Source of the DNA: Arenicellales bacterium
GTDB lineage: Bacteria; Pseudomonadota; Gammaproteobacteria; Arenicellales; JAJDZL01
DNA length: 64,000 bases
Reading direction: 5' to 3'
Assembly: GCA_965202615.1 (NCBI GenBank)
Contig: OZ241837.1
Coordinates: 1,096,347-1,160,346 of the forward strand
Part shown: in pieces, positions 2,182-32,300 of the stretch
How the letters are laid out: each line of letters opens with the position of its first letter
How positions within the stretch are numbered: position 1 is the first letter of the stretch
Notes under the pieces: model-generated
The model's input: only the letters and a program-made list of their open reading frames with translations
The model's database searches: none
What the model was told of the DNA's origin: nothing
Position numbers and translations under genes: made by a program

Positions 2182-4221
2182 TTGGAGTGTGATGTTGTGA
2201 AAGAGATTTATGATTGGGTTCCTTGGTTTTCAACACTTGCACAGAAAATTGTGACTGGCGGGAAGAATGATTTGGTTGAGAAAGCCAAAAATGTAAATTG
2301 GAACAACGATGAAAATTTGTCCCCACTGCTGAGTTATGATGACAAAAATATCGACCCCTTTTCGTTCTTTTATTTTCTGGCAAGATGCAATTCGAGCAAC
2401 ATACGGCCGATTGTATATCCAAGCATAAGCAGAGAATTTGATCTGGATGAACCGCCATCCTTTGATATAGACGACGCATGGCTTTTTCCGACACCTCTTC
2501 CTACTGCGAAAGTATTGTTTCATTCTGACGGTGAAGGCGATCCTGACTTGATGTGGGAACTTTTTGAGAGTGCTTGTCGAGGATTAGATCAAGTTCGGGA
2601 CTCGGATTTCAATAGAGCTTTAAAGATCAACAACGTCAAGAGGAGAAAACTGACTCAAACGCTTTTCCTCATCAATCCTGAGGAGTTTGTACCATACGAC
2701 AAACATGTGGAGACGCTATTACCTGAAATTGATCCTGACCCATTCAATTTCGAAAAGTACCGGCAGGTGCTTGAAAATCTCCAGAACAAATTTCCGGGTT
2801 GTAGTTTTCATGAGATCAACCATTTCGCTTTCACGAATGGGTACAAAGATTCCGTGAAATCAAAGAGAGAATTCTACCAAGTAAGTACGCGTGTGGGAGG
2901 TTATGAAGATGACGATCATTGGGAAGAATTCAATGAGAATAATTGGGTTCGGACGGGTTGGCCGGGCAGTGAGTCTAAGCGTTATCATTTAAATCGACCA
3001 GAACCGGGTGATATCGTTCTTGTTAGATGCGGTATGGAAGGACGAGGTATCGGAATCGTACACAAGAACGAGTATAAAAATGACTTTGCAGAAAATTGGG
3101 ATGATGATGCAAGAATCCACGTGGTATGGATCAATAAGAACGAGGGACGCCTTGTTACGCGCGAAAGACTTCGCCCAGGATTTAACAGCGCATCCAATTT
3201 CGCTGAGGCATTTCGGAAATCCCCAGCCTATGCACCGACTTTTCAAGTAGTAGACCCTATAGTCAAATCCAAAAAGAAAACAAACGCACAAACCCTCGAA
3301 AAATTAGCAAACGACTTATTTCTACCTGTAGAGTTTCTTGAGAATATCAAGACGCTGTTGAAACAGAAAAAACAAGTAATTTTTCAAGGCCCACCAGGTA
3401 CTGGGAAGACCTACGTCGCTCAAGAGTTGGCAAAACATCTGGTTGATGGAAAAAATCGTTGGGACCTCGTTCAATTTCATCCGTCCTATTCATACGAGGA
3501 TTTCGTTCGCGGCTATCGTCCGACACTGGAAAATGGACAACCGACATTCAAACTTAAGGATGGCCCGTTATTGCGGATAGCAGAAAAGGCTAGAAAAACC
3601 GATGATAATCACAAATTCGTCCTAATCATCGACGAAATTAACCGGGGTAACCTTGCCAAAGTGCTGGGAGAACTCTATTTCCTGCTGGAATACCGAGATA
3701 AACCCATTGAGCTGATGTACCAAGAGGAGAAAGAAGACCCTTTTGTATTGCCGCAGAATCTGTACATCATCGGAACGATGAATACCGCCGACCGATCCAT
3801 AGCACTTGTCGATTTGGCGTTGCGTCGTCGGTTTGCATTTGTGGACTTCAATCCACATGAGAAGCCTATCAGTGACGTTCTCGGTTGGTGGTTGCAGACA
3901 AATAACTTAGTAAAGTTTACATGGCTAGCTGAGTTGGTTTTAAACACCAATATTAAGCTACAAGGCTACAGTGCTGCCGCTATTGGACCAAGCTACTTCA
4001 TGAATAACACCCTTCTCGACAACAGTGACGTTGAGCGTATTTGGAAGCACGAGGTTCTGCCGTACATTGGGGAACAGTTCTTCGGTGATTCTAAGAAGGC
4101 GTCAGAGTTTCAACTAGATTCATTGAAGAAGGCGAACAGCAACTCTGGTTTGAGCGATGCTGCGGAAGGCGCTACGTCAGAAATTTCTCAAGTTCCGAAG
4201 AAAAACGATGCAGGAGATTAA
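2182..4221 (+). CDS. mcrB: McrB-family GTPase (AAA+) subunit of a type IV restriction system, with a long non-canonical N-terminal region
   Basis: Walker A FQGPPGTGKTY, VQFHPSYSYEDFVRGYRP, Walker B/McrB signature LIIDEINRGNLAKVLGELYFLLEYRD, and IIGTMNTADRSIALVDLALRRRFAF. About 370 aa precede the AAA+ core. The start is non-ATG (TTG at 2182 or GTG at 2197), so the 5' end is uncertain. Confidence 0.85.
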   Translation: MECDVVKEIYDWVPWFSTLAQKIVTGGKNDLVEKAKNVNWNNDENLSPLLSYDDKNIDPFSFFYFLARCNSSNIRPIVYPSISREFDLDEPPSFDIDDAWLFPTPLPTAKVLFHSDGEGDPDLMWELFESACRGLDQVRDSDFNRALKINNVKRRKLTQTLFLINPEEFVPYDKHVETLLPEIDPDPFNFEKYRQVLENLQNKFPGCSFHEINHFAFTNGYKDSVKSKREFYQVSTRVGGYEDDDHWEEFNENNWVRTGWPGSESKRYHLNRPEPGDIVLVRCGMEGRGIGIVHKNEYKNDFAENWDDDARIHVVWINKNEGRLVTRERLRPGFNSASNFAEAFRKSPAYAPTFQVVDPIVKSKKKTNAQTLEKLANDLFLPVEFLENIKTLLKQKKQVIFQGPPGTGKTYVAQELAKHLVDGKNRWDLVQFHPSYSYEDFVRGYRPTLENGQPTFKLKDGPLLRIAEKARKTDDNHKFVLIIDEINRGNLAKVLGELYFLLEYRDKPIELMYQEEKEDPFVLPQNLYIIGTMNTADRSIALVDLALRRRFAFVDFNPHEKPISDVLGWWLQTNNLVKFTWLAELVLNTNIKLQGYSAAAIGPSYFMNNTLLDNSDVERIWKHEVLPYIGEQFFGDSKKASEFQLDSLKKANSNSGLSDAAEGATSEISQVPKKNDAGD

Positions 4222-5434
4222 TTTACAGGAGCACCAAGAGAGTGGTCCGCATTCCCTTTCGAGTGAACAGCGGGACGAGTTGATATGTGCCCGGAAAATG
4301 CTTGCCATAGATTTGGGCATTGAACCTATTGCTGGTAGCAACGATCAGTATTTGCTGACCCCGGGAGCGACTATCGGCGCATTCGAGACAGCGAGTTGTT
4401 CAGTATTCATCGCACCCAAGATTACGATCAGGCAATTAGTTTCACTCCTCTGTTTCACTATTAGTCAAGTCAGGTTTCAGGAAGATGAGTTTGATTTTCC
4501 AGAGGAAGCCGCGTTGCCCGATGCTCTAGCGCTTGCATTCGGAGCCGCCGCACGGAGGTGTTTTTCCAGAGGATTGTTCCATGGCTACCGTACCCAAGAA
4601 GAGGCGTTATACGAAGTGCGCGGACGAATTAGGTTTGATGATCAAATTCGTCGTAGAAGCGGTGTGCTGTTGCCGACCGAGGTGCGATACGATGAATTTA
4701 CCGATGACATCTTGCTCAACCGTCTTGTCAAAGCTGCAGCTTGGAGGCTTCGCGGAATGTCGTTAGTCTCGTCTGAAGCATCCAAACAGTTGGCTTGGGT
4801 GACGGGAATGCTCCGTGGTATCGAGCAAGTAGAGTTTCCACGAGATGCAGTCCCGAAAGTGGAATTCAACCGTCTCAATGAACACTACCGGGGTGTGGTG
4901 ACATTGGCACAAATTATTTTGCGGCATGTCGCGTTCGAAGCAAATCGGGGCACTATCCGTGCATCTGGCTTTGTTGTGAACATGTTCCGGTTCTTTCAGG
5001 AGTTTGTGACGGTTGCCTTGAGGCAGTCGTTGAGAATTTCCGAATACGAGAAGTTCGGCGAGCACTACATCGCGTCGCTCGATCTAGAGGGCTCAGTTTC
5101 CTTAAAACCGGATCTGACTTGGTGGAATAGCGATGACTGTCAATTCGTTGGTGATGTAAAGTACAAACAAGGGAATGGAGACGTACCGAACGCTGACCTC
5201 TATCAGTTGCTTGCCTATGTAACCGCGCTTGACCTCCCTGGTGGAATGCTAATCTACGCACAGAACGAAGCCGACGTTGTGACGCACATGGTTCGCCACT
5301 CAGGCAAACGTCTTGTTATAACCGGGCTTGATCTTTCGGACAGCTTGGATCGAGTGCTTTCAAGAGTCGACGAAATTGCGAGGCAAGTAGAGAATTTACG
5401 TATCAATCCTCAGTTCCGTAGTCGCGTGGCATAA
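4208..5434 (+). CDS. mcrC: McrC-family nuclease subunit (PD-(D/E)xK)
   Basis: The ATG at 4208 overlaps the mcrB stop (4219-4221). The position immediately downstream of mcrB is typical. The C-terminal motif SLKPDLTWW...FVGDVKYKQ fits a PD...D/ExK nuclease core. Confidence 0.8.
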   Translation: MQEINLQEHQESGPHSLSSEQRDELICARKMLAIDLGIEPIAGSNDQYLLTPGATIGAFETASCSVFIAPKITIRQLVSLLCFTISQVRFQEDEFDFPEEAALPDALALAFGAAARRCFSRGLFHGYRTQEEALYEVRGRIRFDDQIRRRSGVLLPTEVRYDEFTDDILLNRLVKAAAWRLRGMSLVSSEASKQLAWVTGMLRGIEQVEFPRDAVPKVEFNRLNEHYRGVVTLAQIILRHVAFEANRGTIRASGFVVNMFRFFQEFVTVALRQSLRISEYEKFGEHYIASLDLEGSVSLKPDLTWWNSDDCQFVGDVKYKQGNGDVPNADLYQLLAYVTALDLPGGMLIYAQNEADVVTHMVRHSGKRLVITGLDLSDSLDRVLSRVDEIARQVENLRINPQFRSRVA

Positions 5435-23758: not shown

Positions 23759-25114
23759 GTGGATTCCGATTTGCACACCACGGCCATACAAATTTTAATT
23801 GCAGCACTTAGTTTGCTCCCAGCCGCTTCGGCAACGGCCGACAGTGGTGCGGCTCTGTCTTTTTCAGTGCTTGAGTGGTGGGTGGTCATCGGTTCGTTGT
23901 TTATTGGTGTATTGATTTCCGCATCAAGGGAGCGTCAGCCGCTGCAATCAAATCAGGTCGGTCTTGATAGTGAAATAGCAAATGGCTCAGACACTCGCCA
24001 ACAAAGCAAAACCGCACAAACGCGCAAAATGTTGTACTTTGCCGCGAGTGGAGTATTTGCGGGATTGCTCGCTTCAATTTCAACGCTATTCCCAGCAGTC
24101 TGTACTTTGGGGACTGTTGCAATTTTGTTGTTTGGTTTTGCCGTTTCTCTACTGGGTGTGTCTCCAATCAGCCTCTCCTCGATCCTACAATCCGATCACT
24201 TGGAGCGATTTTCAGACAGTTGGACTTCAGGATTGGTCGTTGCTTTAATTCTGGCATCTGTTACATCTTGGGTAATCAATCCTTTGATTGGCACCAGTCT
24301 TGTCGACAGCGATTTTCAACTGGTTGCTGGCATTATCGCAGGATTGACAGTCGGTGCAATCATTGGCGAGCTTTGGACCAGCCATGCGAAAACTGACAGT
24401 GCAGACGATTTTCGGCGATTGATGCGTCGTTTTTCCGCAGTTGCCATGATTGCCTTGGCAATATACGTGGCTGGCAGAATTCCTGAGGTTCCCGTGTTGT
24501 TTCTCTGGGCTGTATTTCTAGTGGTTCTCTCAGTGTACTGTGGCGCAACGACCCGACTCGCGCAGCCCGCCAGCGGTGAGCGACAACTGCTTAAGGGTTT
24601 GGGTGTTGTGATGCTGATTTTCGGAGTGATAGGACTGACCAGCGCTTCGGTCGGCTCCCGAAATTTGAACGAGTCATTCACCCAATTTTCGGCCTTTATA
24701 ACCGCGGGTGGGGGACTCGACGGTACCCTGTCCGGGGAATCCAAGTCAGAGGTGTTCGTTTACGCCAGGTCCATGGATGAGTTTGACCAAATGCTTGCGC
24801 AGGCGAAGCAAGCAGGTAAACCGGCTGCAGTAGATTTGTATGCTGACTGGTGTCTCGACTGTAAACGAATGGACCGAACAACATTCAAAGAACCGTCAAT
24901 CGTAACTGAATTGACCGAAACCTTTGACAGCATCAAAATAGATATTACCGATCCCAACGATAGATTTGGCCGTGCGTTAAGAAAGCGCTTCAAGGTGTTC
25001 GGCCCGCCTGCACTGCTGTTCTTTGACCGAGACGGAAATGTTTCGGCAAACTCTCCTGTCTATGGCTACCTTGATGTTGACGAATTGACCGTTCTGCTCG
25101 CGCAGGTCAAGTAG
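23759..25114 (+). CDS. dsbD: DsbD-family thiol:disulfide interchange protein (membrane region plus C-terminal thioredoxin domain; atypical N-terminus)
   Basis: The C-terminus GKPAAVDLYADWCLDCKRMDRTTF...FGPPALLFFDRDG parallels E. coli DsbD-gamma ([24 protein letters not shown]...LGLPTILFFD). Several hydrophobic helices lie upstream. I see no recognisable DsbD-alpha domain. The start codon is GTG. Confidence 0.65.
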   Translation: MDSDLHTTAIQILIAALSLLPAASATADSGAALSFSVLEWWVVIGSLFIGVLISASRERQPLQSNQVGLDSEIANGSDTRQQSKTAQTRKMLYFAASGVFAGLLASISTLFPAVCTLGTVAILLFGFAVSLLGVSPISLSSILQSDHLERFSDSWTSGLVVALILASVTSWVINPLIGTSLVDSDFQLVAGIIAGLTVGAIIGELWTSHAKTDSADDFRRLMRRFSAVAMIALAIYVAGRIPEVPVLFLWAVFLVVLSVYCGATTRLAQPASGERQLLKGLGVVMLIFGVIGLTSASVGSRNLNESFTQFSAFITAGGGLDGTLSGESKSEVFVYARSMDEFDQMLAQAKQAGKPAAVDLYADWCLDCKRMDRTTFKEPSIVTELTETFDSIKIDITDPNDRFGRALRKRFKVFGPPALLFFDRDGNVSANSPVYGYLDVDELTVLLAQVK

Positions 25115-25621
25115 AAATTGTGTCCTACGGACTATTGAAGCGTTGACTTCATTCAGGAAATAGATTACCGAATCTGCCTAGTCCTACAACAAGTTTGATA
25201 GTTGTGAAGAACCTGAAAATTATTGCTTCTCCTGAAGACTCTATTTTCCTAAACCAACTAGACAATTGACCGTCACGAAACGATAAAGAAAATTGTAGAA
25301 TACTTGACTAAAGTTGACGATGCTCGCAGAAAACTGTGCGGTTGTTGCACAGCGCACACGGGAGGCTTGAGAACAGTTTAGTACTATGAAAAGTTGAATG
25401 AAACTTGATGGGGAATGCCAAATTGCAGTCAATTCAAAACGACTACCAAAGACCTACAGGGCAGAGTACAAGATCGCTACTCCCGAACAGGTTGCAAAAT
25501 ACTCTTACTACATAATCCATTAAAGTCAGATTATTCCAAAAGATCACAAATGTGGAAATGAAATTTTTGGACGTCAATCTAAATATTCAACTCCCAAAAT
25601 GAAATACAAGGTTACCCTACT

Positions 25622-26392
25622 ATGGCGACACTTAAATTAGATGAATGGCAAGTCGAGAATTTGCGGTTCACTGTTTTTCCAACGGAGAGTGTTAGTATGG
25701 CCGTTCGATTTTGGGAGTCTCTGATTGGAAGTCCCCCAGATGATCAACACAGCCAACCAAATAAGGGTTTATTTACGGAGGAGGGTACATACGAAGATAC
25801 CAAACTTGGAGTTCAAATTGCTCCCCAAAGAATTGATTGGTTACTATACCCAGATATCCAAAAAATTAGTGGAACATTACCAACTTTTGGTAATTACGAA
25901 TCTTGGAGTCAGCGATTCCTCGAGTTGATGCTGAAATGGTTAGCGGAGTGTCCCTCTGTAAACAGATTGGCATATGGTTGTATACTTTTGCACCCGTGTA
26001 ACAATTTAAATGTTGCTTATGAAACACTCAAACCTTTACTTCCAACTGTCTCGATTGGAGATGGTAATTTTTCCGATTTGAGTTTCAGAATAAACCGTCC
26101 GAGAACAAAAAAGTTTGGAAAAGAGGACGTGAATTTCAATCGCCTTTCCACTTGGTCGGCTAGGGATTTGATTTCTGGCAATATTCAAATTTCAAGTGAT
26201 ATTCGGGAAACTGGGCATAACCTGAATATACCAATTCATCAAATTGCATCGCAGAGTTGTATTAGGCTGGAATCAGACATTAATACTACGCACTATAGAA
26301 ACGAATCCTTTGCCAAAAATAAACTTCCACATATTTTCGAAACACTTGTGGAGTACGGCAATGAAATTGCTAGCAATGGAGATGTTCCATGA
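25622..26392 (+). CDS. Hypothetical protein A of a three-gene operon (no family recognised)
   Basis: 256-aa ORF in an AT-richer islet. Its stop overlaps the start of the next gene (ATGA at 26389-26392). There are no TM segments and no motif I can assign. Confidence 0.6.
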   Translation: MATLKLDEWQVENLRFTVFPTESVSMAVRFWESLIGSPPDDQHSQPNKGLFTEEGTYEDTKLGVQIAPQRIDWLLYPDIQKISGTLPTFGNYESWSQRFLELMLKWLAECPSVNRLAYGCILLHPCNNLNVAYETLKPLLPTVSIGDGNFSDLSFRINRPRTKKFGKEDVNFNRLSTWSARDLISGNIQISSDIRETGHNLNIPIHQIASQSCIRLESDINTTHYRNESFAKNKLPHIFETLVEYGNEIASNGDVP

Positions 26393-27300
26393 CTTTTGAT
26401 CGTTCTGCCTCAACAAATTTCGCTGAAGGTTATGAGTTCTTGTCGTTTGAAATTTTCGAAGATTCAAATATGCCTTGTTTCTCTGGAGTTATAAGCGGTC
26501 AATATTCACCATTTAATGAGTTGCCTGAATTCAATACTGTATTCCTACGGTATTTCTCAGGCCAACCCGAAGCAGATAGTTCGAATCAATCTTTTTTGAT
26601 TAGTAGTGAGGGGTTGGACCGAGCGAGTTTTGCTATTGTTAAAGTTCACTCTGGTCAACTCCGAGAAATTTCTCGCAATGCAATTTTAGGCATTGGCTTC
26701 AACAGTGAATTTTCGGATAAACTTCAAAGGTCATGGAAAAATTTGTTTATTGATCAATCGCCGGAGTTCCACGCTCCATTAATTTCCTATTATTCTGACC
26801 AATCCGAAGCAGATAGTCCGAATCAAACTTTTTTGACTAGTAGCGAGAGGTCAGGTCGCACAAGCTTTGCTATCGTCGAAAAGCGTATTGATCAACTCTA
26901 CGAAGTTGCTCGAAATGAAGTTTTCAAAGTCGGTTACAACAGTCAGTTTTCAAGTGATTTACAAAGGTTATTTGAGCAATTCCCTTTTGATGTTATGCGA
27001 ATTTTGAAAAAAATATTGGCTTCAAATAAAAAGGATACAGAAATTTTGGCAGAAATACTGCGCTGGGTATCACGTCAGGAATCGCTTTCGGTCAGGAATT
27101 TGGTGATCGATATTCTGTCCACTGGGCTTTATCACCAGTCATCTTTAGTGAGAGATGCGGCAGCGAATGGTATTGCCGATATCGACGAAAAAATTGCTGT
27201 TGGACACATTGAACTTGCAATCGATAGAGAAAAAGTCCCTGAACTTCGCACTGATATGCGAGATCTTTTGCGCTCTTTATCTGATAACTTGAGTAAATGA
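26389..27300 (+). CDS. Hypothetical protein B: internal 79-aa tandem duplication plus a HEAT/ARM-like C-terminus
   Basis: 303-aa ORF with overlapping start and stop on both sides. The repeat YFSGQPEADSSNQSFLISSEG..SFAIV... recurs as YYSDQSEADSPNQTFLTSSER..SFAIV.... The C-terminal segment LVIDILSTGLYHQSSLVRDAAANGIADI looks like a HEAT repeat. Confidence 0.6.
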   Translation: MTFDRSASTNFAEGYEFLSFEIFEDSNMPCFSGVISGQYSPFNELPEFNTVFLRYFSGQPEADSSNQSFLISSEGLDRASFAIVKVHSGQLREISRNAILGIGFNSEFSDKLQRSWKNLFIDQSPEFHAPLISYYSDQSEADSPNQTFLTSSERSGRTSFAIVEKRIDQLYEVARNEVFKVGYNSQFSSDLQRLFEQFPFDVMRILKKILASNKKDTEILAEILRWVSRQESLSVRNLVIDILSTGLYHQSSLVRDAAANGIADIDEKIAVGHIELAIDREKVPELRTDMRDLLRSLSDNLSK

Positions 27301-27788
27301 TTCTTAGAAAACTGAGTCAGCGGAGAAATTGGGATAAAGAAAAGTGGCTAGGGTCAGATGAAGTGCAAGGAAATGCTCTTCATTGTCTTCTACCAAAATG
27401 CAACCGATTATCCATATTTAAAATTGACCAAAAATTACAGCGAGAGCGAACGGTTGCTGCCTTGGCGCTGACGAGAGATAACCTCTCGTACTTGGATCTG
27501 GCTGAATTTAATGAAGAATTGATTAGTTCTTTGGATATTCGTACTGAAGAGGTGCTCGCGAATACTCCCGATTATGAAGTTAACGGGTGGCACATAGATC
27601 TTGTAGAATTGACGGTGTCCAAGATTGCAAGGATTGCTATATCGATTCGAAACGAGGGAAAAGTAATGCGCTATCCCCAAGGAGATGTGATTAAATTCAT
27701 TTCAAATTCCATTCGAGATAAGTGCATCAATCTGGAGGAAATTAATCCACAAATGCAATCCTCATTGAGGAAAAGAAACGTGCTCTGA
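27297..27788 (+). CDS. Hypothetical protein C of the three-gene operon
   Basis: 163-aa ORF whose ATG overlaps the stop of gene B (ATGA at 27297-27300). I recognise no motif. Confidence 0.55.
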   Translation: MILRKLSQRRNWDKEKWLGSDEVQGNALHCLLPKCNRLSIFKIDQKLQRERTVAALALTRDNLSYLDLAEFNEELISSLDIRTEEVLANTPDYEVNGWHIDLVELTVSKIARIAISIRNEGKVMRYPQGDVIKFISNSIRDKCINLEEINPQMQSSLRKRNVL

Positions 27789-28070
27789 GATGGAGTTTTT
27801 AGGTTAGTTTGATCCTTTATGACATCAAATGAGAATTGCGATTGAACCGAAAGATGAATTCGCATAAACCACCGCGACACAATCTTTCTCATTTGCCCCT
27901 CCACTTACATCTCACAGTCGGTGACACCACGCTTGTAATTGTCGCTTTTCACAAACACGTCGTCAACGCACCAGCTGATTACGCATTGCATCCCTGCAAT
28001 TCGATGTCAGACGCAATTTTGCGCTCAATGTCGCACACTGCCCTGTCGATTTTTCACAGCAATTGAGCAA

Positions 28071-28548
28071 ACCAGTGCTTTGATCGGTTCCCGGAATTTT
28101 AACGAGTCATTCACTCTATTTATCAGCCTTAATTACCGCGGGTGGGGGACTCGACAGTGCCCTGTCCGGGGAATCCGAATCAGAGGTGTTTGTTTACGCT
28201 AGGTCCATGGATGAGTTTGACCAAATGCTTGCACAGGCGAAGCAAGCGGGTAAACCGGCTGCAGTAGATTTGTATGCTGACTGGTGTCTCGACTGTAAAC
28301 GAATGGACCGAACAACATTCAAAGAACCGTCAATCGTAACTGAAATGACTGAAACCTTTGACAGCATCAAGATTGATATTACCGATCCCAACGATAGATT
28401 TGGCCGTGCGTTAAGAAAGCGCTTCAAGGTGTTCGGCCCGCCTGCACTGCTGTTCTTTGATCGAGACGGAAACGTTTCGGCAAACTCTCCTGTCTATGGC
28501 TACCTTGATGTTGACGAATTGACCGTTCTGCTTGCACAGGTCAAGTAG
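28071..28548 (+). pseudogene. Partial duplicate of the dsbD 3' end (copy B), retaining an intact thioredoxin-domain reading frame
   Basis: 28071-28655 aligns with 24638-25220. The 5' part carries a 1-nt indel relative to dsbD near 28120-28135. From the GTG at 28186 the 120-codon frame is intact and differs from DsbD at one residue (L to M). Confidence 0.8.
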
Positions 28549-28880
28549 AAATTGTGTCCTACGGACTATTGAAGCGTTCACTTCATTCAGATAATCAGAT
28601 TTCAGGGTCTGTGCAGCCCACAACATGTTGAATTGTTTCGAAGAACCTGAATTTTCCTGATAATCCATAATGCGCCGTTTACCAAGACGATCTCAAACAT
28701 TCCATAATTTAACCCTGCAAATTAGAAATTTCATTTCTAATTTGCAGGCATATTGAGCCACATCTCGCCAGTCCCATTCTTAATGCATTGGTAACCATGA
28801 CAACTTGCTGGCTCCCCAGTAGTTGGTGCAAGTTGAGAAGCGTTCGTGATTGAAAATTGGAAGGTTCTGCCGATCGGTAT

Positions 28881-29279
28881 TCAGATTAAATCTTCAAGGT
28901 CCACATTCAATGATCTGGCAAGTTTGGCCATAGTCTGGGTTGGTCCGGTACGTCTGCCTGTTTCAATCTGTGAAAGATAGACTGTATTGATTCCAACCTC
29001 CTGTGCCAGCTGTTTCTGTGTTATTCCGCGATGAACACGGTAGAACTTGACCGCGTTTTCTCCAGCTAGCAAACGGTCTGCTACATCAATTGGAAACGAC
29101 TCTTCATCAGCAGACTTGGCACTGTCATATAGCTCTTCGTCGCTTAGGTATAAATCGGAATGGAATTCGCTCAAACGCTTATACAGGTGCCATGGGTTAA
29201 CGGCATAAGCTGGTTGTCCTTTTTCATCGAGAATAACTTGCGTTTTAGTCAATTTAGTTCTCCTACTGTTTATAGACAT
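28881..29279 (-). CDS. XRE-family HTH protein with a Phd/YefM-like N-terminal segment (antitoxin/regulator-like)
   Basis: The C-terminus RVHRGITQKQLAQEVGINTVYLSQIETGRRTGPTQTMAKLARSLNV is a classic XRE HTH. The N-terminus QVILDEKGQPAYAV.PWHLY resembles Phd-type antitoxins. ATG at 29279. Confidence 0.7.
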   Translation of the reverse strand: MSINSRRTKLTKTQVILDEKGQPAYAVNPWHLYKRLSEFHSDLYLSDEELYDSAKSADEESFPIDVADRLLAGENAVKFYRVHRGITQKQLAQEVGINTVYLSQIETGRRTGPTQTMAKLARSLNVDLEDLI

Positions 29280-29626
29280 TGCTTCTGAGACTGATTCGCA
29301 ATACCTCAATTTCCAGAATCTAATTTTCTAGGTCGAAGATTACGCACCTTGAAGTCACTAGGCAATAGTTGCTTCGTATTCGCGTCCTTCTTCAAAACTA
29401 CCTGCATTTGCATGGAACTCGAACGGCAGTCGAGAACTTAACCTTCAAGAAAGCAATGATCAAATCAGTGATAGCTAGTTAGCACGAAATCCACTCTCGT
29501 GCACTTGGGAGGGAATCAATGAGGCGATCTCAATGAATTCCAGTGGTCTAGCAATTTTTTTCGGAGTCTATCAAAAGCTTGCTTCTCCTTAGTGTTCAAA
29601 TCCTTTTCGTTCGCAACAGTCTGCAA

Positions 29627-29809
29627 TTAGCCAATAACAATTTCAACTGCTGCCGTAAAAGGTAAATCCTCTAGACGACGAAGAATGGCGTCGAATGATC
29701 CGGCGAGTGACGTAAGCAGTGTATGAACGGATTTGCCGGGAAAACTGGCTGTGGGATGAGGAATATTCATAGTAGTTTCGCAAATTACGTATACCATTTG
29801 ATAGTTCAA
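29627..29809 (-). CDS. Small hypothetical protein (60 aa) coupled to the lipoprotein gene
   Basis: Its start overlaps the lipoprotein stop by 4 nt (29806-29809). There is no other support. Confidence 0.3.
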   Translation of the reverse strand: MNYQMVYVICETTMNIPHPTASFPGKSVHTLLTSLAGSFDAILRRLEDLPFTAAVEIVIG

Positions 29810-30471
29810 TTTTTTAGCATAAATGCGTAAGCATATCCAGCACTTTCTATGTGTGCAGAACCTACGTTGGACAACAGAATTTCTATTTTTCTACGACGAG
29901 ACAGTTCAAATTCTGTGTGCTCAATTGGCCTACTGTCAACAAAAGCACTTAATACGGTGACAATTTCAGTTTGCTTTTCACTATGCAAAATTAGTTTAAC
30001 GTCCGAGTTAGCTATGTTTAGCGACTGATCAAACTCATCGGAAACTCGTTCATTCAGAACTTCAAATTTATCCAAGTCGGTCGCGAAAAATACATCTATT
30101 CCCATATTCGATTCCACAGCTACTATGCCTAAAAGCGAATTTGCTTGATTCCATGAATTAAATCCATTCACAATAGGAATATCTGCATCGAGTACGAGGT
30201 ACGTATCAAAATCTTTCCGTACACATCCTCTTGTTGAAATTTTAGAGATAAATCCCTTCAATAAATTAGCTATTTGAGTTGCATTTTTTTTGCACTCTTC
30301 ATTAGAAATCATTTCTAATTTCAATGTCGCTAATGTCACCAAATTAGCATTTTCATTTGCGACAACATCACGTAAATCACTTGTATACAAATCTGAAGTT
30401 ACATTGAAATCACACGCTGACAACACCGTAATCGCGAAAATTAGCAGTATTGAATTCCATTTCTTTTTCAC
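29806..30471 (-). CDS. Hypothetical lipoprotein
   Basis: It has a signal peptide with a lipobox, MKKKWNSILLIFAITVLSAC|DF. The 221-aa ORF lies 12 nt downstream of the membrane-protein gene. Confidence 0.6.
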   Translation of the reverse strand: MKKKWNSILLIFAITVLSACDFNVTSDLYTSDLRDVVANENANLVTLATLKLEMISNEECKKNATQIANLLKGFISKISTRGCVRKDFDTYLVLDADIPIVNGFNSWNQANSLLGIVAVESNMGIDVFFATDLDKFEVLNERVSDEFDQSLNIANSDVKLILHSEKQTEIVTVLSAFVDSRPIEHTEFELSRRRKIEILLSNVGSAHIESAGYAYAFMLKN

Positions 30472-31487: not shown

Positions 31488-31705
31488 GGTGAGTTGCTCT
31501 TGAAAAATGAAATTGCGGGAGATAGCTGGCAACCGATCCGTCGTGTTGCTTGTGTCGCCATGATTGTCCTTGCAACATATGTGGCTGGCAGGATTACTGA
31601 GGTTCCCGTGTTGTTTCTCTGGGCTGTATTTCCAGTTGTCCTCTCAGTGTATTGTGGTGCAACGACCCGACTGGCGCAGCCCGCCAGTAATGAGCGGCTA
31701 CTGGA
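31488..31705 (+). pseudogene. Fragment of a diverged dsbD membrane-domain segment (copy C)
   Basis: The translation GELLLKN...VAMIVLATYVAGRITEVPVLFLWAVFPVVLSVYCGATTRLAQPASNER parallels DsbD residues encoded at about 24367-24585. The nucleotide identity is obvious across 31557-31700. Confidence 0.8.
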
Positions 31706-31907
31706 AACGGAATTCACGGCGTGGAGTGAGGCACTGGCTTATGGTGAAAACCGCCAGCAAACAGACTTCCCCATCGTCCTGCCATTCACCGCGCCAGTAG
31801 TCGACTCTACCACTCTTAGGTAAAATTAACGCAAACTTTAATTTGACAAACGGAGGCTAAAACTCATTCAATAGACACAAACAATCGCGAGAAAACGCCT
31901 GAATCAA

Positions 31908-31993
31908 AGCGAAATGTTCAAATTGATGCGAAAGGGTGTTCAAATAAAATGCGAATCCGTGTACAAATTCTTGCGAATATGCATAGTGATCTG
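31908..31993. repeat. Iteron-like direct repeats (3-4 units, about 22-bp period)
   Basis: The units are GCGAAATGTTCAAATTGA, TGCGAAAGGGTGTTCAAATAAAA, TGCGAATCCGTGTACAAATTCT and TGCGAATATGCATAG. The GCGAA cores sit at 31909, 31928, 31951 and 31973. Confidence 0.5.
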
Positions 31994-32040
31994 AACTTTG
32001 TCTGTATAGAATGCGTAAAGGATTTTGCATTTGCACAAAC

Positions 32041-32145
32041 CCTCTTGTCTATGGCTACTTTGGTGTTGACGAATTGAAGTGACCTTTCTGCTTGAGAAAT
32101 TGAAGTAGAATTTGTCCTATGGACAATTGAATAGTGAAGCAGTTT
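32041..32145 (+). repeat. Diverged copy of the dsbD 3' terminus plus downstream tail (copy D)
   Basis: CCTCTTGTCTATGGCTACTTTGGTGTTGACGAATTGA...GAAGTAGAATTTGTCCTATGGACAATTGAA aligns with 25052-25150 (CTCCTGTCTATGGCTACCTTGATGTTGACGAATTGA...CAAGTAGAAATTGTGTCCTACGGACTATTGAA). Confidence 0.75.
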
Positions 32146-32300
32146 AATTGAAACTGTGATGCTCCGTTGTCTTGGGCACCACCTACAGTCCGATCAAAAA
32201 TCAGTCTAATGCGTAGGATTGACTACACAGGCTGGAAACAATCCCTTGCTGCATAGTGGCATTGTTCGATTTACAGCCTTGATAAGGAGATAAGACCGAT

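What the first reader, a model, noticed from the sequence alone, without database searches (positions are those of the whole stretch)
25622..27788. Translationally coupled three-gene operon of unassignable proteins in islet 1: candidate undescribed (defence?) system
Three ORFs of 256, 303 and 163 aa are chained by ATGA start/stop overlaps at 26389-26392 and 27297-27300. About 500 bp of non-coding AT-rich DNA precedes them. They are the only cargo of the first islet at the dsbD hotspot.

Two further nuclease or TA-type modules lie in the same array (GmrSD; an HTH/Phd-like regulator), and McrBC/EcoRII lie elsewhere in the window. That is the guilt-by-association context used to discover defence systems.

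I cannot find any catalytic motif I know in the three proteins: no P-loop, HNH, PD-(D/E)xK, TIR, SIR2, HEPN RxxxxH or DTG. Protein B has an internal duplication and a HEAT-like C-terminus, suggesting a scaffold or sensor. The N-terminus of protein A (VENLRFTVFP) is faintly reminiscent of TIGR04255-type proteins, but I cannot confirm that.
Basis: inference. Interest (0 to 1): 0.72.

Follow-up and report, generated by a model that had tools for sequence, protein, structure and literature searches.

The report
Three-gene toxin–antitoxin-like module, uncharacterised families
The three overlapping genes are a real, widely spread but undescribed gene cassette that looks like a three-part toxin–antitoxin or anti-phage module, in which a constant first protein is teamed with exchangeable "antidote + poison" pairs, here with a poison of unknown type.

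Summary
Three ORFs (256, 303 and 163 aa) are chained by ATGA overlaps. They are the only cargo of a low-GC islet bracketed by two copies of the dsbD 3' end.

No Pfam, NCBIfam or PADLOC model matches A, B or C, nor does any PDB sequence profile; TIGR04255 is not matched. The trio is still conserved in order and coupling in 65 loci across at least 8 phyla. Distant versions are the sole cargo of 4–7 kb plasmids in Klebsiella, Enterobacter and Acinetobacter. The A family has about 3,490 clusters at 50% identity.

In 19 further loci the same A is followed by other gene pairs. Their last gene is a classical toxin (RES, PIN or HEPN, each above the Pfam cut-off), a retropepsin-like protein, or an unknown. 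These pairs have been swapped repeatedly behind A. C is the gene that decays first.

Best reading: a tripartite toxin–antitoxin / abortive-infection module. C is a toxin of new fold with an invariant His. B is an antitoxin with a variable N-terminal region and a HEAT-like C-terminal domain. A, possibly TBP-like, is a constant accessory hub, analogous in logic but unrelated in sequence to SecB-type TAC systems. No function has been tested experimentally.

The parts
25115..25621 (+). Upstream non-coding leader of the operon (507 bp, GC about 0.41). The promoter presumably lies here but was not identified.
   Evidence: Only ORFs of 63 aa or less. Sigma-70-like matches are at chance level (8 found, 7.0 expected). 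No Rfam match at E<=1.
25622..26392 (+). Gene A (256 aa). It is the constant first gene of the module. It is predicted as a two-lobed alpha+beta protein, possibly TBP-like, with conserved Arg/Asp/Asn/Trp residues on its strands: R15, R70, D72, W73, R115, N158, R159, R161, N173, R174, W178, E217, D219.
   Evidence: AF2 pLDDT 85.9, pTM 0.85. Foldseek: AdoMetDC/prozyme E=3e-4 but TM 0.29; BFVD best hit E=1.5e-6 with TMt 0.50, plus giant-virus TBPs at E=6e-3 to 0.1. There are 3,490 clusters at E<=1e-3. No Pfam, NCBIfam or PDB match.
26389..27300 (+). Gene B (303 aa), the predicted antitoxin/adaptor. It has a variable, S/T/P/G-rich N-terminal part and a conserved helical, HEAT-like C-terminal domain.
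   Evidence: Only the C-terminal ~140 aa are conserved. B length ranges 169-356 aa; S+T+P+G is 0.31 in the N part and 0.20 in the C part. The profile hits alphaRep/HEAT-like repeat proteins at E=0.003. It sits where antitoxins sit in RES/PIN/HEPN sister operons.
26527..26991 (+). Internal tandem duplication within B (aa 47-122 and aa 126-201). The second copy includes the first conserved helices of the C-terminal domain.
   Evidence: BLASTP of the two halves gives 47% identity over 76 aa, E=5e-23.
26881..27297 (+). Conserved C-terminal domain of B (aa ~165-303), HEAT-like. It is the predicted C-binding, neutralising domain.
   Evidence: Invariant columns run from L170 to P284. Pfam HEAT matches aa 240-265 weakly. 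hhalign to the plasmid second genes gives P=0.0011 over 132 columns.
27297..27788 (+). Gene C (163 aa), the predicted toxin/effector. It is an alpha/beta protein with no detectable structural relative. Invariant residues are W12, L38-S39, A55 and H99; near-invariant are R4, G88, N96 and D101 (motif TPD..N.WH.DL).
   Evidence: AF2 pLDDT 87.8, pTM 0.84. Best Foldseek PDB E=0.45. Matches phrog_10743 (unknown function) at 1.4e-10. Conservation. It occupies the toxin slot and decays preferentially.
24618..25160 (+). Left boundary of the islet: the 3' end of the intact dsbD-like gene plus ~45 nt downstream, forming an att-like repeat.
   Evidence: Direct repeats D1, D3 and D4 and the three-way alignment.
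28051..28595 (+). Right boundary of the islet: a displaced second copy of the dsbD 3' end plus the same downstream core.
   Evidence: An ORF at 28186-28548 reproduces the last 120 aa of dsbD.

Best explanation
The operon is a tripartite toxin–antitoxin-type conflict module. It would act as an abortive-infection defence, as an addiction cassette, or as both.

C is the toxin or effector. It is probably an enzyme built around an invariant His99, with Ser39, Arg4, Asn96 and Asp101 nearby. B is its antitoxin: the conserved HEAT-like C-terminal domain binds and neutralises C, while the variable N-terminal part makes B dependent on A.

A is a constant accessory 'hub'. It is made in fixed proportion with B through translational coupling. 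I infer that A holds or stabilises B in the resting state and acts as the trigger sensor. When A is diverted or its conserved charged surface is engaged, for example by a phage product or a nucleic acid, B is lost and C is released to arrest the cell.

The logic is that of SecB-type toxin–antitoxin–chaperone (TAC) systems, but it is built from three unrelated, uncharacterised protein families.

Shown here: the conservation and coupling of the trio; the modular exchange of gene-2/gene-3 cassettes behind A; bona fide toxin domains in C's slot; preferential decay of C; carriage as sole plasmid cargo.

Inferred, not shown: the toxicity of C, neutralisation by B, every aspect of A's role, and any anti-phage phenotype.
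For: 1. Synteny. A-B-C occurs in the same order in 65 loci. These span Binatia, Cyanobacteria, Alpha-, Beta- and Gammaproteobacteria, Acidobacteriota, Planctomycetota, Chloroflexota, Nitrospirota and Spirochaetia. The A/gene-2 junction is a 4-nt overlap in 77 of 108 cases.

2. Co-divergence. Spearman correlations are 0.59-0.71, Mantel p=0.001.

3. Alternative pairs. In 19 loci A is followed by other pairs. The third gene is RES (37.1 bits, cut-off 23.2), PIN (23.8, cut-off 23.6), HEPN (30.2, cut-off 22), retropepsin-like (below cut-off), or one of several unknown families. Second-gene clusters co-vary with third-gene clusters. The RES partner has a weak Xre-like antitoxin HTH match.

4. Cassette swapping. 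A proteins of alternative operons are interspersed among canonical ones. For example, L034's A is 63% identical to a canonical A but only 35% to its own type.

5. Asymmetric decay. In 51 loci with enough room, C is truncated, frameshifted or absent in at least 6 independent cases while A and B stay intact. B was never defective with C intact. C makes up only about a quarter of the coding length.

6. Plasmid cargo. Distant homologous trios are essentially the only cargo of 4.4-7.5 kb ColE1/MOBQ plasmids. hhalign gives 1e-24 for C, P=0.0011 for B and P=0.0015 for A, with controls at P about 0.3.

7. Neighbourhood. Neighbours often include GmrSD, Mrr, SIR2, DISARM DrmA, MmeI, type I RM, a DRT reverse transcriptase, AriA, PD-T4-6, AbiEii and TacA.

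8. Local setting. The trio sits in a low-GC islet at an att-like site, next to a GmrSD islet.

9. Precedent. TAC systems show that a constant third component can both stabilise an antitoxin and sense phage proteins, with interchangeable TA 'warheads'.
Against: - No experiment of any kind supports this.
- C has no recognisable toxin fold or motif.
- B's HEAT assignment is below the curated threshold.
- A's many invariant charged residues fit a specific ligand-binding or catalytic site better than a generic chaperone. The variable N-termini of gene-2 products share no motif that A could recognise (information content 7.65, against 7.1-7.6 for shuffled sequences).
- A is not SecB-like by sequence or fold search.
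- The immediate neighbours (two genes on each side) are mostly housekeeping genes, and I had no matched control for the defence enrichment.
- Nothing was found in viral contigs or phage genomes. That is neutral for defence, but it means the PHROG hit for C is unexplained.
- Some frameshifts counted as decay of C could be metagenome assembly errors.
Confidence: 0.55

Rival explanations
1. The module is a classical type II TA pair (B antitoxin, C toxin), and A is a separate DNA-binding autoregulator of the operon. This would resemble the three-component omega-epsilon-zeta or paaR-paaA-parE systems. A's possibly TBP-like beta-sheet with conserved Arg/Asn would bind the operator, replacing the DNA-binding domain that these antitoxins lack.
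For: A has weak structural resemblance to TBPs and other TBP-like folds. Its conserved basic and polar residues lie on beta strands. The gene-2 N-termini have no recognisable DNA-binding domain. A is the first gene in the operon in all loci.
Against: The fold assignment is weak (TM 0.2-0.5). No operator-like repeat or significant promoter was found upstream. The RES-type partner still carries an Xre-like HTH of its own, which would make a separate regulator redundant. Strict 4-nt translational coupling to gene 2 suggests a stoichiometric protein complex.
Confidence: 0.15
2. The architecture is the same, but the selected function is purely selfish. The module would be a post-segregational-killing or addiction cassette that stabilises small plasmids and integrase-less islets, with no role in phage defence.
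For: It is the sole cargo of 4.4-7.5 kb plasmids. It is the sole cargo of an islet at an att-like site. Many chromosomal copies sit among housekeeping genes rather than in defence islands.
Against: Strong defence genes adjoin it repeatedly, about 10% of the nearest neighbours, which I estimate is well above a typical genome-wide density of defence genes (general knowledge, not measured here). TAC and many other TA systems once thought selfish are now known to be anti-phage. The two roles are not exclusive.
Confidence: 0.2
3. A is a substrate-recruiting subunit of the effector, like the tandem TBP-like domains that RnlA needs to bind RNA. Under this reading A would not be a regulator of the antitoxin.
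For: RnlA's TBP1/TBP2 domains precede a HEPN RNase and are required for RNA binding. A is possibly TBP-like and has a conserved basic surface. PIN and HEPN RNases are among A's partners.
Against: A also partners with RES, an NAD+-targeting family by established knowledge, and with protease-like effectors. These do not need an RNA-binding subunit. RnlA and LsoA are not among A's top 50 Foldseek PDB hits. A is coupled to gene 2, not to the toxin gene.
Confidence: 0.08
4. It is not a conflict system but an ordinary, accessory metabolic or regulatory operon of unknown function that happens to be horizontally mobile.
For: There is no catalytic motif or known family, and most immediate neighbours are housekeeping genes.
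Against: Toxin domains (RES, PIN, HEPN) occupy the equivalent slot in sister operons. C decays preferentially. The trio is carried as sole cargo on plasmids. Its phyletic pattern is patchy.
Confidence: 0.05

Closest known systems
Toxin–antitoxin–chaperone (TAC) systems, e.g. M. tuberculosis HigBA-SecB(TA), E. coli HigBAC and CmdTAC
   Same: Both are three-gene modules. In both, a constant third component is teamed with interchangeable TA 'warheads'. In both, the antitoxin carries an extra, poorly conserved extension beyond its neutralising domain. TAC systems are found on mobile elements and are known to act in abortive anti-phage defence, with the third component acting as the phage sensor.
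   Different: A is not SecB-like: no Pfam or PDB-profile match, and no SecB among the top 50 Foldseek hits. The antitoxin extension is N-terminal here, not a C-terminal ChAD element. A is the first gene and is coupled to the antitoxin gene. C, the principal toxin, belongs to no known toxin family. PADLOC models, which I recall include CmdTAC under its earlier name PD-T4-9, do not match.
Hyperpromiscuous TA partners such as the Panacea (PanA) antitoxin domain
   Same: One conserved protein module is found with many unrelated toxin families, which implies repeated partner swapping (title and abstract of PMC8832971 as listed; here).
   Different: By the abstract listed, PanA is itself the neutralising antitoxin domain of the systems it occurs in. 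A is an additional third protein, and the neutralising domain in gene 2 changes together with the toxin. There is no sequence relationship.
RES–Xre, VapBC (PIN) and HEPN-type toxin–antitoxin pairs
   Same: Sister operons of this family contain exactly these toxin domains as the last gene, preceded by a cognate partner. The order is the same (antitoxin upstream, toxin downstream) and the genes overlap tightly.
   Different: In the window the toxin slot is filled by C and the antitoxin slot by a HEAT-like domain, and neither is related to those families. All A-linked versions have an extra upstream gene and, going by my recollection of typical antitoxin sizes (not measured here), a long extra N-terminal region on the antitoxin.
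RnlA/LsoA anti-phage toxins (tandem TBP-like domains + HEPN)
   Same: A tandem pair of TBP-like alpha+beta domains is associated with a toxin in an anti-phage TA system. A is predicted to be a two-lobed, possibly TBP-like protein.
   Different: In RnlA the domains are fused to the toxin and serve RNA binding. A is a separate protein coupled to the antitoxin gene. No sequence or significant structural match to RnlA was found.

Membership tests
TAC (toxin–antitoxin–chaperone) | The third component is a SecB-like chaperone | tested here: not met
   A has no Pfam, NCBIfam or PDB-profile match. SecB is not among the top 50 Foldseek PDB hits.
TAC (toxin–antitoxin–chaperone) | The antitoxin carries a C-terminal chaperone-addiction (ChAD) extension | tested here: not met
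   The non-conserved extension of B, and of the alternative gene-2 products, is N-terminal. The C-terminus is the conserved domain.
TAC (toxin–antitoxin–chaperone) | A constant third component combined with interchangeable TA units | tested here: met
   At least 8 gene-2/gene-3 cassette types occur behind interspersed A proteins. This is a similarity of logic only.
TAC (toxin–antitoxin–chaperone) | The third component stabilises the antitoxin and is displaced by a phage protein | not testable with these tools
   This needs biochemistry and phage assays.
Type II toxin–antitoxin system | Adjacent co-transcribed genes with the antitoxin upstream of the toxin, tightly coupled | tested here: met
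   B and C overlap by 4 nt. The order is the same in all loci.
Type II toxin–antitoxin system | The toxin belongs to a recognised toxin family or has a demonstrable toxic activity | tested here: not met
   C has no match in Pfam, NCBIfam, PADLOC, PDB sequences or PDB folds. Indirect support comes from RES, PIN and HEPN in the same slot and from preferential decay of C.
Type II toxin–antitoxin system | The antitoxin binds and neutralises the toxin | not testable with these tools
   No complex prediction or experiment was available.
   None of 10 A-family members matched at E<=10. HMMER's filters drop most matches above about 0.1.
Known or candidate anti-phage systems in PADLOC-DB 2.0 | Match of any component to a system HMM | tested here: not met
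   There were 0 families for A, B and C at E<=1. Models newer than 2023 (current DefenseFinder or PADLOC) could not be run.
HEAT-repeat proteins (B C-terminus) | Pfam HEAT/HEAT_2 match above the gathering score | tested here: inconclusive
   HEAT scores 12.9 bits against a cut-off of 23.5. The family profile hits alphaRep designs at E=0.003. The related L128 gene-2 product hits HEAT_2 at 17.2 bits against 27.7.
TBP-like fold (A) | Two beta-alpha-beta4-alpha lobes forming a pseudo-symmetric saddle, with a significant structural match to TBP-like proteins | tested here: inconclusive
   The secondary structure has two sheet+helix halves. Giant-virus TBPs match at E=6e-3 to 0.1 with TM 0.20-0.25, and the best BFVD hit has TMt 0.50. 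AdoMetDC matches at E=3e-4 with TM 0.29. There is no sequence similarity between the halves (P=0.08).

The most novel reading that the evidence does not exclude
A defines a new family of 'hub' sensor proteins, unrelated to SecB and numbering thousands of clusters. These proteins would gate a set of interchangeable toxin cassettes: C, RES, PIN, HEPN, a retropepsin-like protease and several unknowns. Together they would form a modular immune/addiction system class parallel to TAC. C would be a toxin with a previously unseen fold and chemistry. A's conserved Arg/Asp/Asn surface would be the site that recognises an infection signal.
Probability: 0.35. Interest if true: 0.8.

Novelty: new variant of a known kind. 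Interest (0 to 1): 0.68.

Why it matters
If this reading is right, the finding adds three things.

1. A large protein family (A, ~3,490 clusters at 50% identity) that no library I could search (Pfam, NCBIfam, PADLOC) models. It would act as a common partner of many toxin types. That would give a second, independent solution to the 'constant sensor plus exchangeable warhead' design known from SecB-type TAC systems.

2. A candidate new toxin fold, C.

3. Several further unassigned effector families, found here by their position behind A. One of them is an aspartyl-protease-like protein in a toxin slot.

The system is also practical to study. Distant versions are the only cargo of 4–5 kb ColE1-type plasmids from clinical Klebsiella and Enterobacter, so toxicity, neutralisation, plasmid-stability and phage assays are straightforward. 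A-linked operons could also serve as a guide for finding new toxins and antitoxins.

Tried and rejected
- **TIGR04255 relationship for A.** No NCBIfam hit for any of 10 members, and no paper mentions the family.
- **Curated families.** Pfam, NCBIfam, PADLOC and PHROGs were run on A, B and C. Only C matched, to phrog_10743 of unknown function. Per-member Pfam scans of 81 A and 28 C sequences gave noise only.
- **PDB sequence profiles.** A (10 and 81 sequences) and C (7 and 28 sequences) gave 0 hits.
- **Fold search for C.** Nothing significant. The Tpt1 match (TM 0.32, E=4.4) is too weak to support an ADP-ribosyltransferase-like idea suggested by the R4/S39/D101 pattern.
- **Shared N-terminal docking motif in gene-2 products.** The apparent 'N/A-S-T' element is not above shuffled controls.
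- **Internal duplication of A at sequence level.** Not significant.
- **Informative domain fusions of A.** The long forms are over-called starts or a read-through from an Mrr-like gene.
- **Phage origin.** There are no A or C relatives in IMG/VR contigs or INPHARED phages.
- **An RNA element or obvious promoter or terminator in or around the operon.** None found above chance.
- **Relationship of C to the other unknown third-gene families.** Not related, except that L029 is probably a divergent C (P=0.006).
- **Source organism.** The organism stays unidentified.
- **E. coli homologues of the plasmid version.** None found.
- **Literature on the plasmid proteins' accession numbers.** None found.
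Full report
**Observation.** The three ORFs exist exactly as described. A is 25622-26392 (256 aa), B is 26389-27300 (303 aa) and C is 27297-27788 (163 aa). Both junctions are ATGA overlaps. The 507 bp upstream contain only ORFs of 63 aa or less. The whole islet has GC 0.37-0.44, against about 0.52 for the neighbouring host genes.

The islet lies between an intact dsbD-like gene (23759-25114) and a displaced second copy of that gene's last ~500 bp (28051-28548). A third, shorter copy lies near 32000, ahead of a GmrSD gene. The trio is therefore the sole cargo of islet 1.

**What the proteins are not.** A, B and C match no model in Pfam, NCBIfam or PADLOC 2.0. The only library hit is C to phrog_10743, which has unknown function. 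Family profiles of A (10 and 81 sequences) and C (7 and 28 sequences) hit no PDB sequence. Scanning 81 A and 28 C homologues one by one against Pfam gives only noise.

B's family profile weakly resembles alphaRep artificial HEAT-like repeat proteins (E=0.003). Its Pfam HEAT score is below threshold. B's internal duplication is real (aa 47-122 vs 126-201, E=5e-23).

**Structure.**
- AF2 models of A (pLDDT 86, pTM 0.85) and C (pLDDT 88, pTM 0.84) are confident.
- A is made of two sheet-plus-helix halves.
- Its only notable PDB resemblance is to the AdoMetDC/prozyme sandwich (E=3e-4, but TM 0.29).
- Against viral models, A's best hit has TMt 0.50, and several giant-virus TATA-box-binding proteins appear.
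- I therefore call A 'possibly TBP-like', with low confidence. The two halves show no sequence similarity.
- Across 81 diverse homologues the invariant or near-invariant residues are mostly charged or aromatic and lie on strands: R15, R70, D72, W73, R115, N158, R159, R161, N173, R174, W178, E217 and D219. This suggests a specific binding or catalytic surface.
- C has no significant structural neighbour (best E=0.45).
- C's conserved core is small: W12, L38-S39, A55, an absolutely invariant H99, and near-invariant R4, G88, N96 and D101.

**The trio is a conserved unit.** The word-indexed search found only 6-10 clusters per protein. The exhaustive profile search found 3,490 A-family clusters at 50% identity, 1,645 of them at E<=1e-30.

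Contexts were fetched from metagenome assemblies, 36 species-representative genomes and 80 JGI contigs. They show A-B-C in the same order in 65 loci. The phyla include Binatia, Cyanobacteria, Proteobacteria, Acidobacteriota, Planctomycetota, Chloroflexota, Nitrospirota and Spirochaetia.

The A/gene-2 junction is a 4-nt overlap in 77 of 108 cases. Divergences of A, B and C correlate (Spearman 0.59-0.71, Mantel p=0.001). No relatives were found in IMG/VR or in phage genomes.

**The key functional clue.** In 19 further loci the same A protein is followed by a different coupled gene pair. The third gene of these pairs is one of the following:
- a RES domain (37.1 bits against a cut-off of 23.2);
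- a PIN domain (23.8 against 23.6);
- a HEPN domain (30.2 against 22);
- a retropepsin-like protein (below cut-off);
- one of several unknown families.

Second-gene clusters co-vary with third-gene clusters. The RES partner shows a weak Xre-like antitoxin HTH match.

A proteins of these alternative operons are not a separate clade. For example, L034's A is 63% identical to a canonical A but only 35% to the A of its own cassette type, while canonical A proteins have a median identity of 38% to each other. Gene-2/gene-3 cassettes have therefore been exchanged repeatedly behind a conserved A.

By position, then, C is a toxin or effector and B's conserved C-terminal domain is its neutraliser. Every gene-2 product also carries a variable, S/T/P/G-rich N-terminal part. 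In B this part has a median length of 104 aa, and B's total length ranges from 169 to 356 aa.

**Independent support for 'C = toxin'.** Among 51 loci with room for all three genes, C is truncated, frameshifted or missing in at least 6 independent cases while A and B are intact. B is never defective with C intact. C makes up only about a quarter of the coding length, so six of six defects in C would occur by chance with probability about 0.25^6. Some of these frameshifts could be assembly errors.

**Plasmid versions.** A more central C sequence finds distant homologues on small plasmids:
- In a 4,375-bp Klebsiella ColRNAI plasmid (genes at 220-909, 911-1510 and 1510-2031) three tightly packed genes of A-, B- and C-like size are the main cargo.
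- The same holds in a 7,513-bp Acinetobacter MOBQ plasmid.
- The same holds in a 5,042-bp Enterobacter ColE1-like plasmid. There the first gene runs across the record origin and is missing from the gene table.

Profile comparisons link all three components to the A, B and C families: 1e-24 for C, P=0.0011 for B and P=0.0015 for A, with mismatched controls at P about 0.3. All are annotated 'hypothetical protein', and no paper in the library cites their accessions.

**Neighbourhoods.** Pfam-annotated contexts show the following neighbours:
- GmrSD_N, AAA_14/DUF4143 and an HNH-methyltransferase;
- Mrr_cat;
- SIR2_2;
- a DISARM-like MZB/helicase/PLD set with MmeI and AAA_15;
- AbiEii and TacA.

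A scan of 149 nearest neighbours (two genes on each side, about 40 loci) is mixed. Most are housekeeping singletons. There is a clear minority of strong defence hits: DrmA x2, a DRT reverse transcriptase, type I RM subunits, NsnA, PD-T4-6, AriA x2, MADS components and PDC candidates. I had no matched control for this scan.

In the window itself the trio's islet is followed by an HTH_3/DUF7424 islet and a GmrSD islet. McrBC is confirmed at 2182-5434 but is distant.

**Mechanism.** The best-supported reading is a tripartite toxin–antitoxin-type module with these roles:
- C is the toxin.
- B is the antitoxin. Its C-terminal HEAT-like domain neutralises C, and its N-terminal part ties it to A.
- A is a constant accessory hub, made stoichiometrically with B.

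The closest known logic is the SecB-type TAC system. There a chaperone stabilises an antitoxin through a disordered addiction element and senses phage structural proteins, and the TA 'warheads' are modular.

Membership in TAC fails on its defining features. A is not SecB-like, and the extension is N-terminal rather than a C-terminal ChAD element. The claim is therefore 'works like', not 'is a'.

A's role is the weakest part of the model. Its invariant charged surface argues for a specific ligand, nucleic acid or catalytic function rather than generic chaperoning, and no shared docking motif exists in gene-2 N-termini.

Rival readings are:
- A as a TBP-like DNA-binding autoregulator;
- a purely selfish addiction role;
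- A as an RNA-recruiting subunit like RnlA's TBP domains;
- a non-conflict operon.

**Novelty and verdict.** All three protein families are uncharacterised and are absent from the libraries I could search. The A family is large. The architecture is a new variant of the tripartite TA/TAC theme, built from unrelated parts and with a probable new toxin fold. Nothing has been tested experimentally, and newer defence-system catalogues could not be searched. Interest 0.68.

Noticed in passing
window 24560-25200, 27993-28634, 31560-32180: The dsbD 3' end is present three times. The shared core is about 110 nt: the last ~60 nt of dsbD plus ~45 nt downstream, including a GTCCTACGGAC palindrome. This looks like an att site at which three integrase-less islets have accreted in tandem. 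Islet 1 carries A-B-C, islet 2 carries HTH_3 and DUF7424, and islet 3 carries GmrSD. Each islet brought its own replacement dsbD 3' end.
   Followed up: partly
window 28881-29309 (-) and 29806-30471 (-): Islet 2 carries an HTH_3 (Xre-type) protein with a ~85-aa N-terminal extension, and a DUF7424 protein. This could be another small conflict or TA-like pair. It was not analysed further.
   Followed up: no
L038 11399-11875; L051 3551-4027; L076 2092-2571: A retropepsin-like protein carrying a D-T-G/A-A motif sits in the toxin slot behind A. Pfam gag-asp_proteas scores 21 bits, below the cut-off. It is paired with a conserved partner whose C-terminus reads '...WVALKQGVxLGS...MFVRxG'. This would be an aspartyl protease used as a TA-type effector.
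   Followed up: partly
L026 1832-2266; L034 11583-12020; L092 7424-7846 (and partners L026 1137-1841, L092 6750-7427): Another unassigned ~145-aa third-gene family has the motif 'H..RY...AF.LR...LSVNW.E' and a conserved 'HS' near its C-terminus. It has its own partner family. It has no Pfam match and is not related to C by hhalign.
   Followed up: partly
L033 11198-12031; L045 11354-12028: A third-gene family of 224-277 aa carries a 'GL(N/T)C(A/S)TF' motif suggestive of a cysteine peptidase or amidase-type nucleophile. It has no Pfam match.
   Followed up: no
L131 (NZ_CP083817.1) 4862->524 across the record origin: The A-like first gene of the Enterobacter plasmid trio is missing from the PLSDB gene table because it spans the start of the circular record. 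It overlaps the next gene by 4 nt.
   Followed up: yes
L018 10723-11862: A 379-aa ORF whose N-terminus looks like an IS630-type transposase (judged by eye, not tested) is inserted between A and B. C is also broken downstream. This is an example of a decaying locus.
   Followed up: no
L032, L036, L037 (Oscillatoria): A plus a short B (178 aa) are retained without any C gene in three related cyanobacterial loci. This may be a toxin-less remnant or an A-B pair with another role.
   Followed up: partly
P0043 (417 aa): An A homologue appears fused behind an N-terminal region that looks like an Mrr-type restriction-endonuclease domain (judged by eye, not tested). The A part is truncated at both ends, so this is probably a read-through or mis-call. 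It again places A next to a restriction gene.
   Followed up: partly
window 2182-5434: McrB (E=7e-52 to PDB McrB) and McrC (E=3e-11) are confirmed. McrB has a ~350-aa N-terminal region that is unrelated to the E. coli DNA-binding domain.
   Followed up: partly
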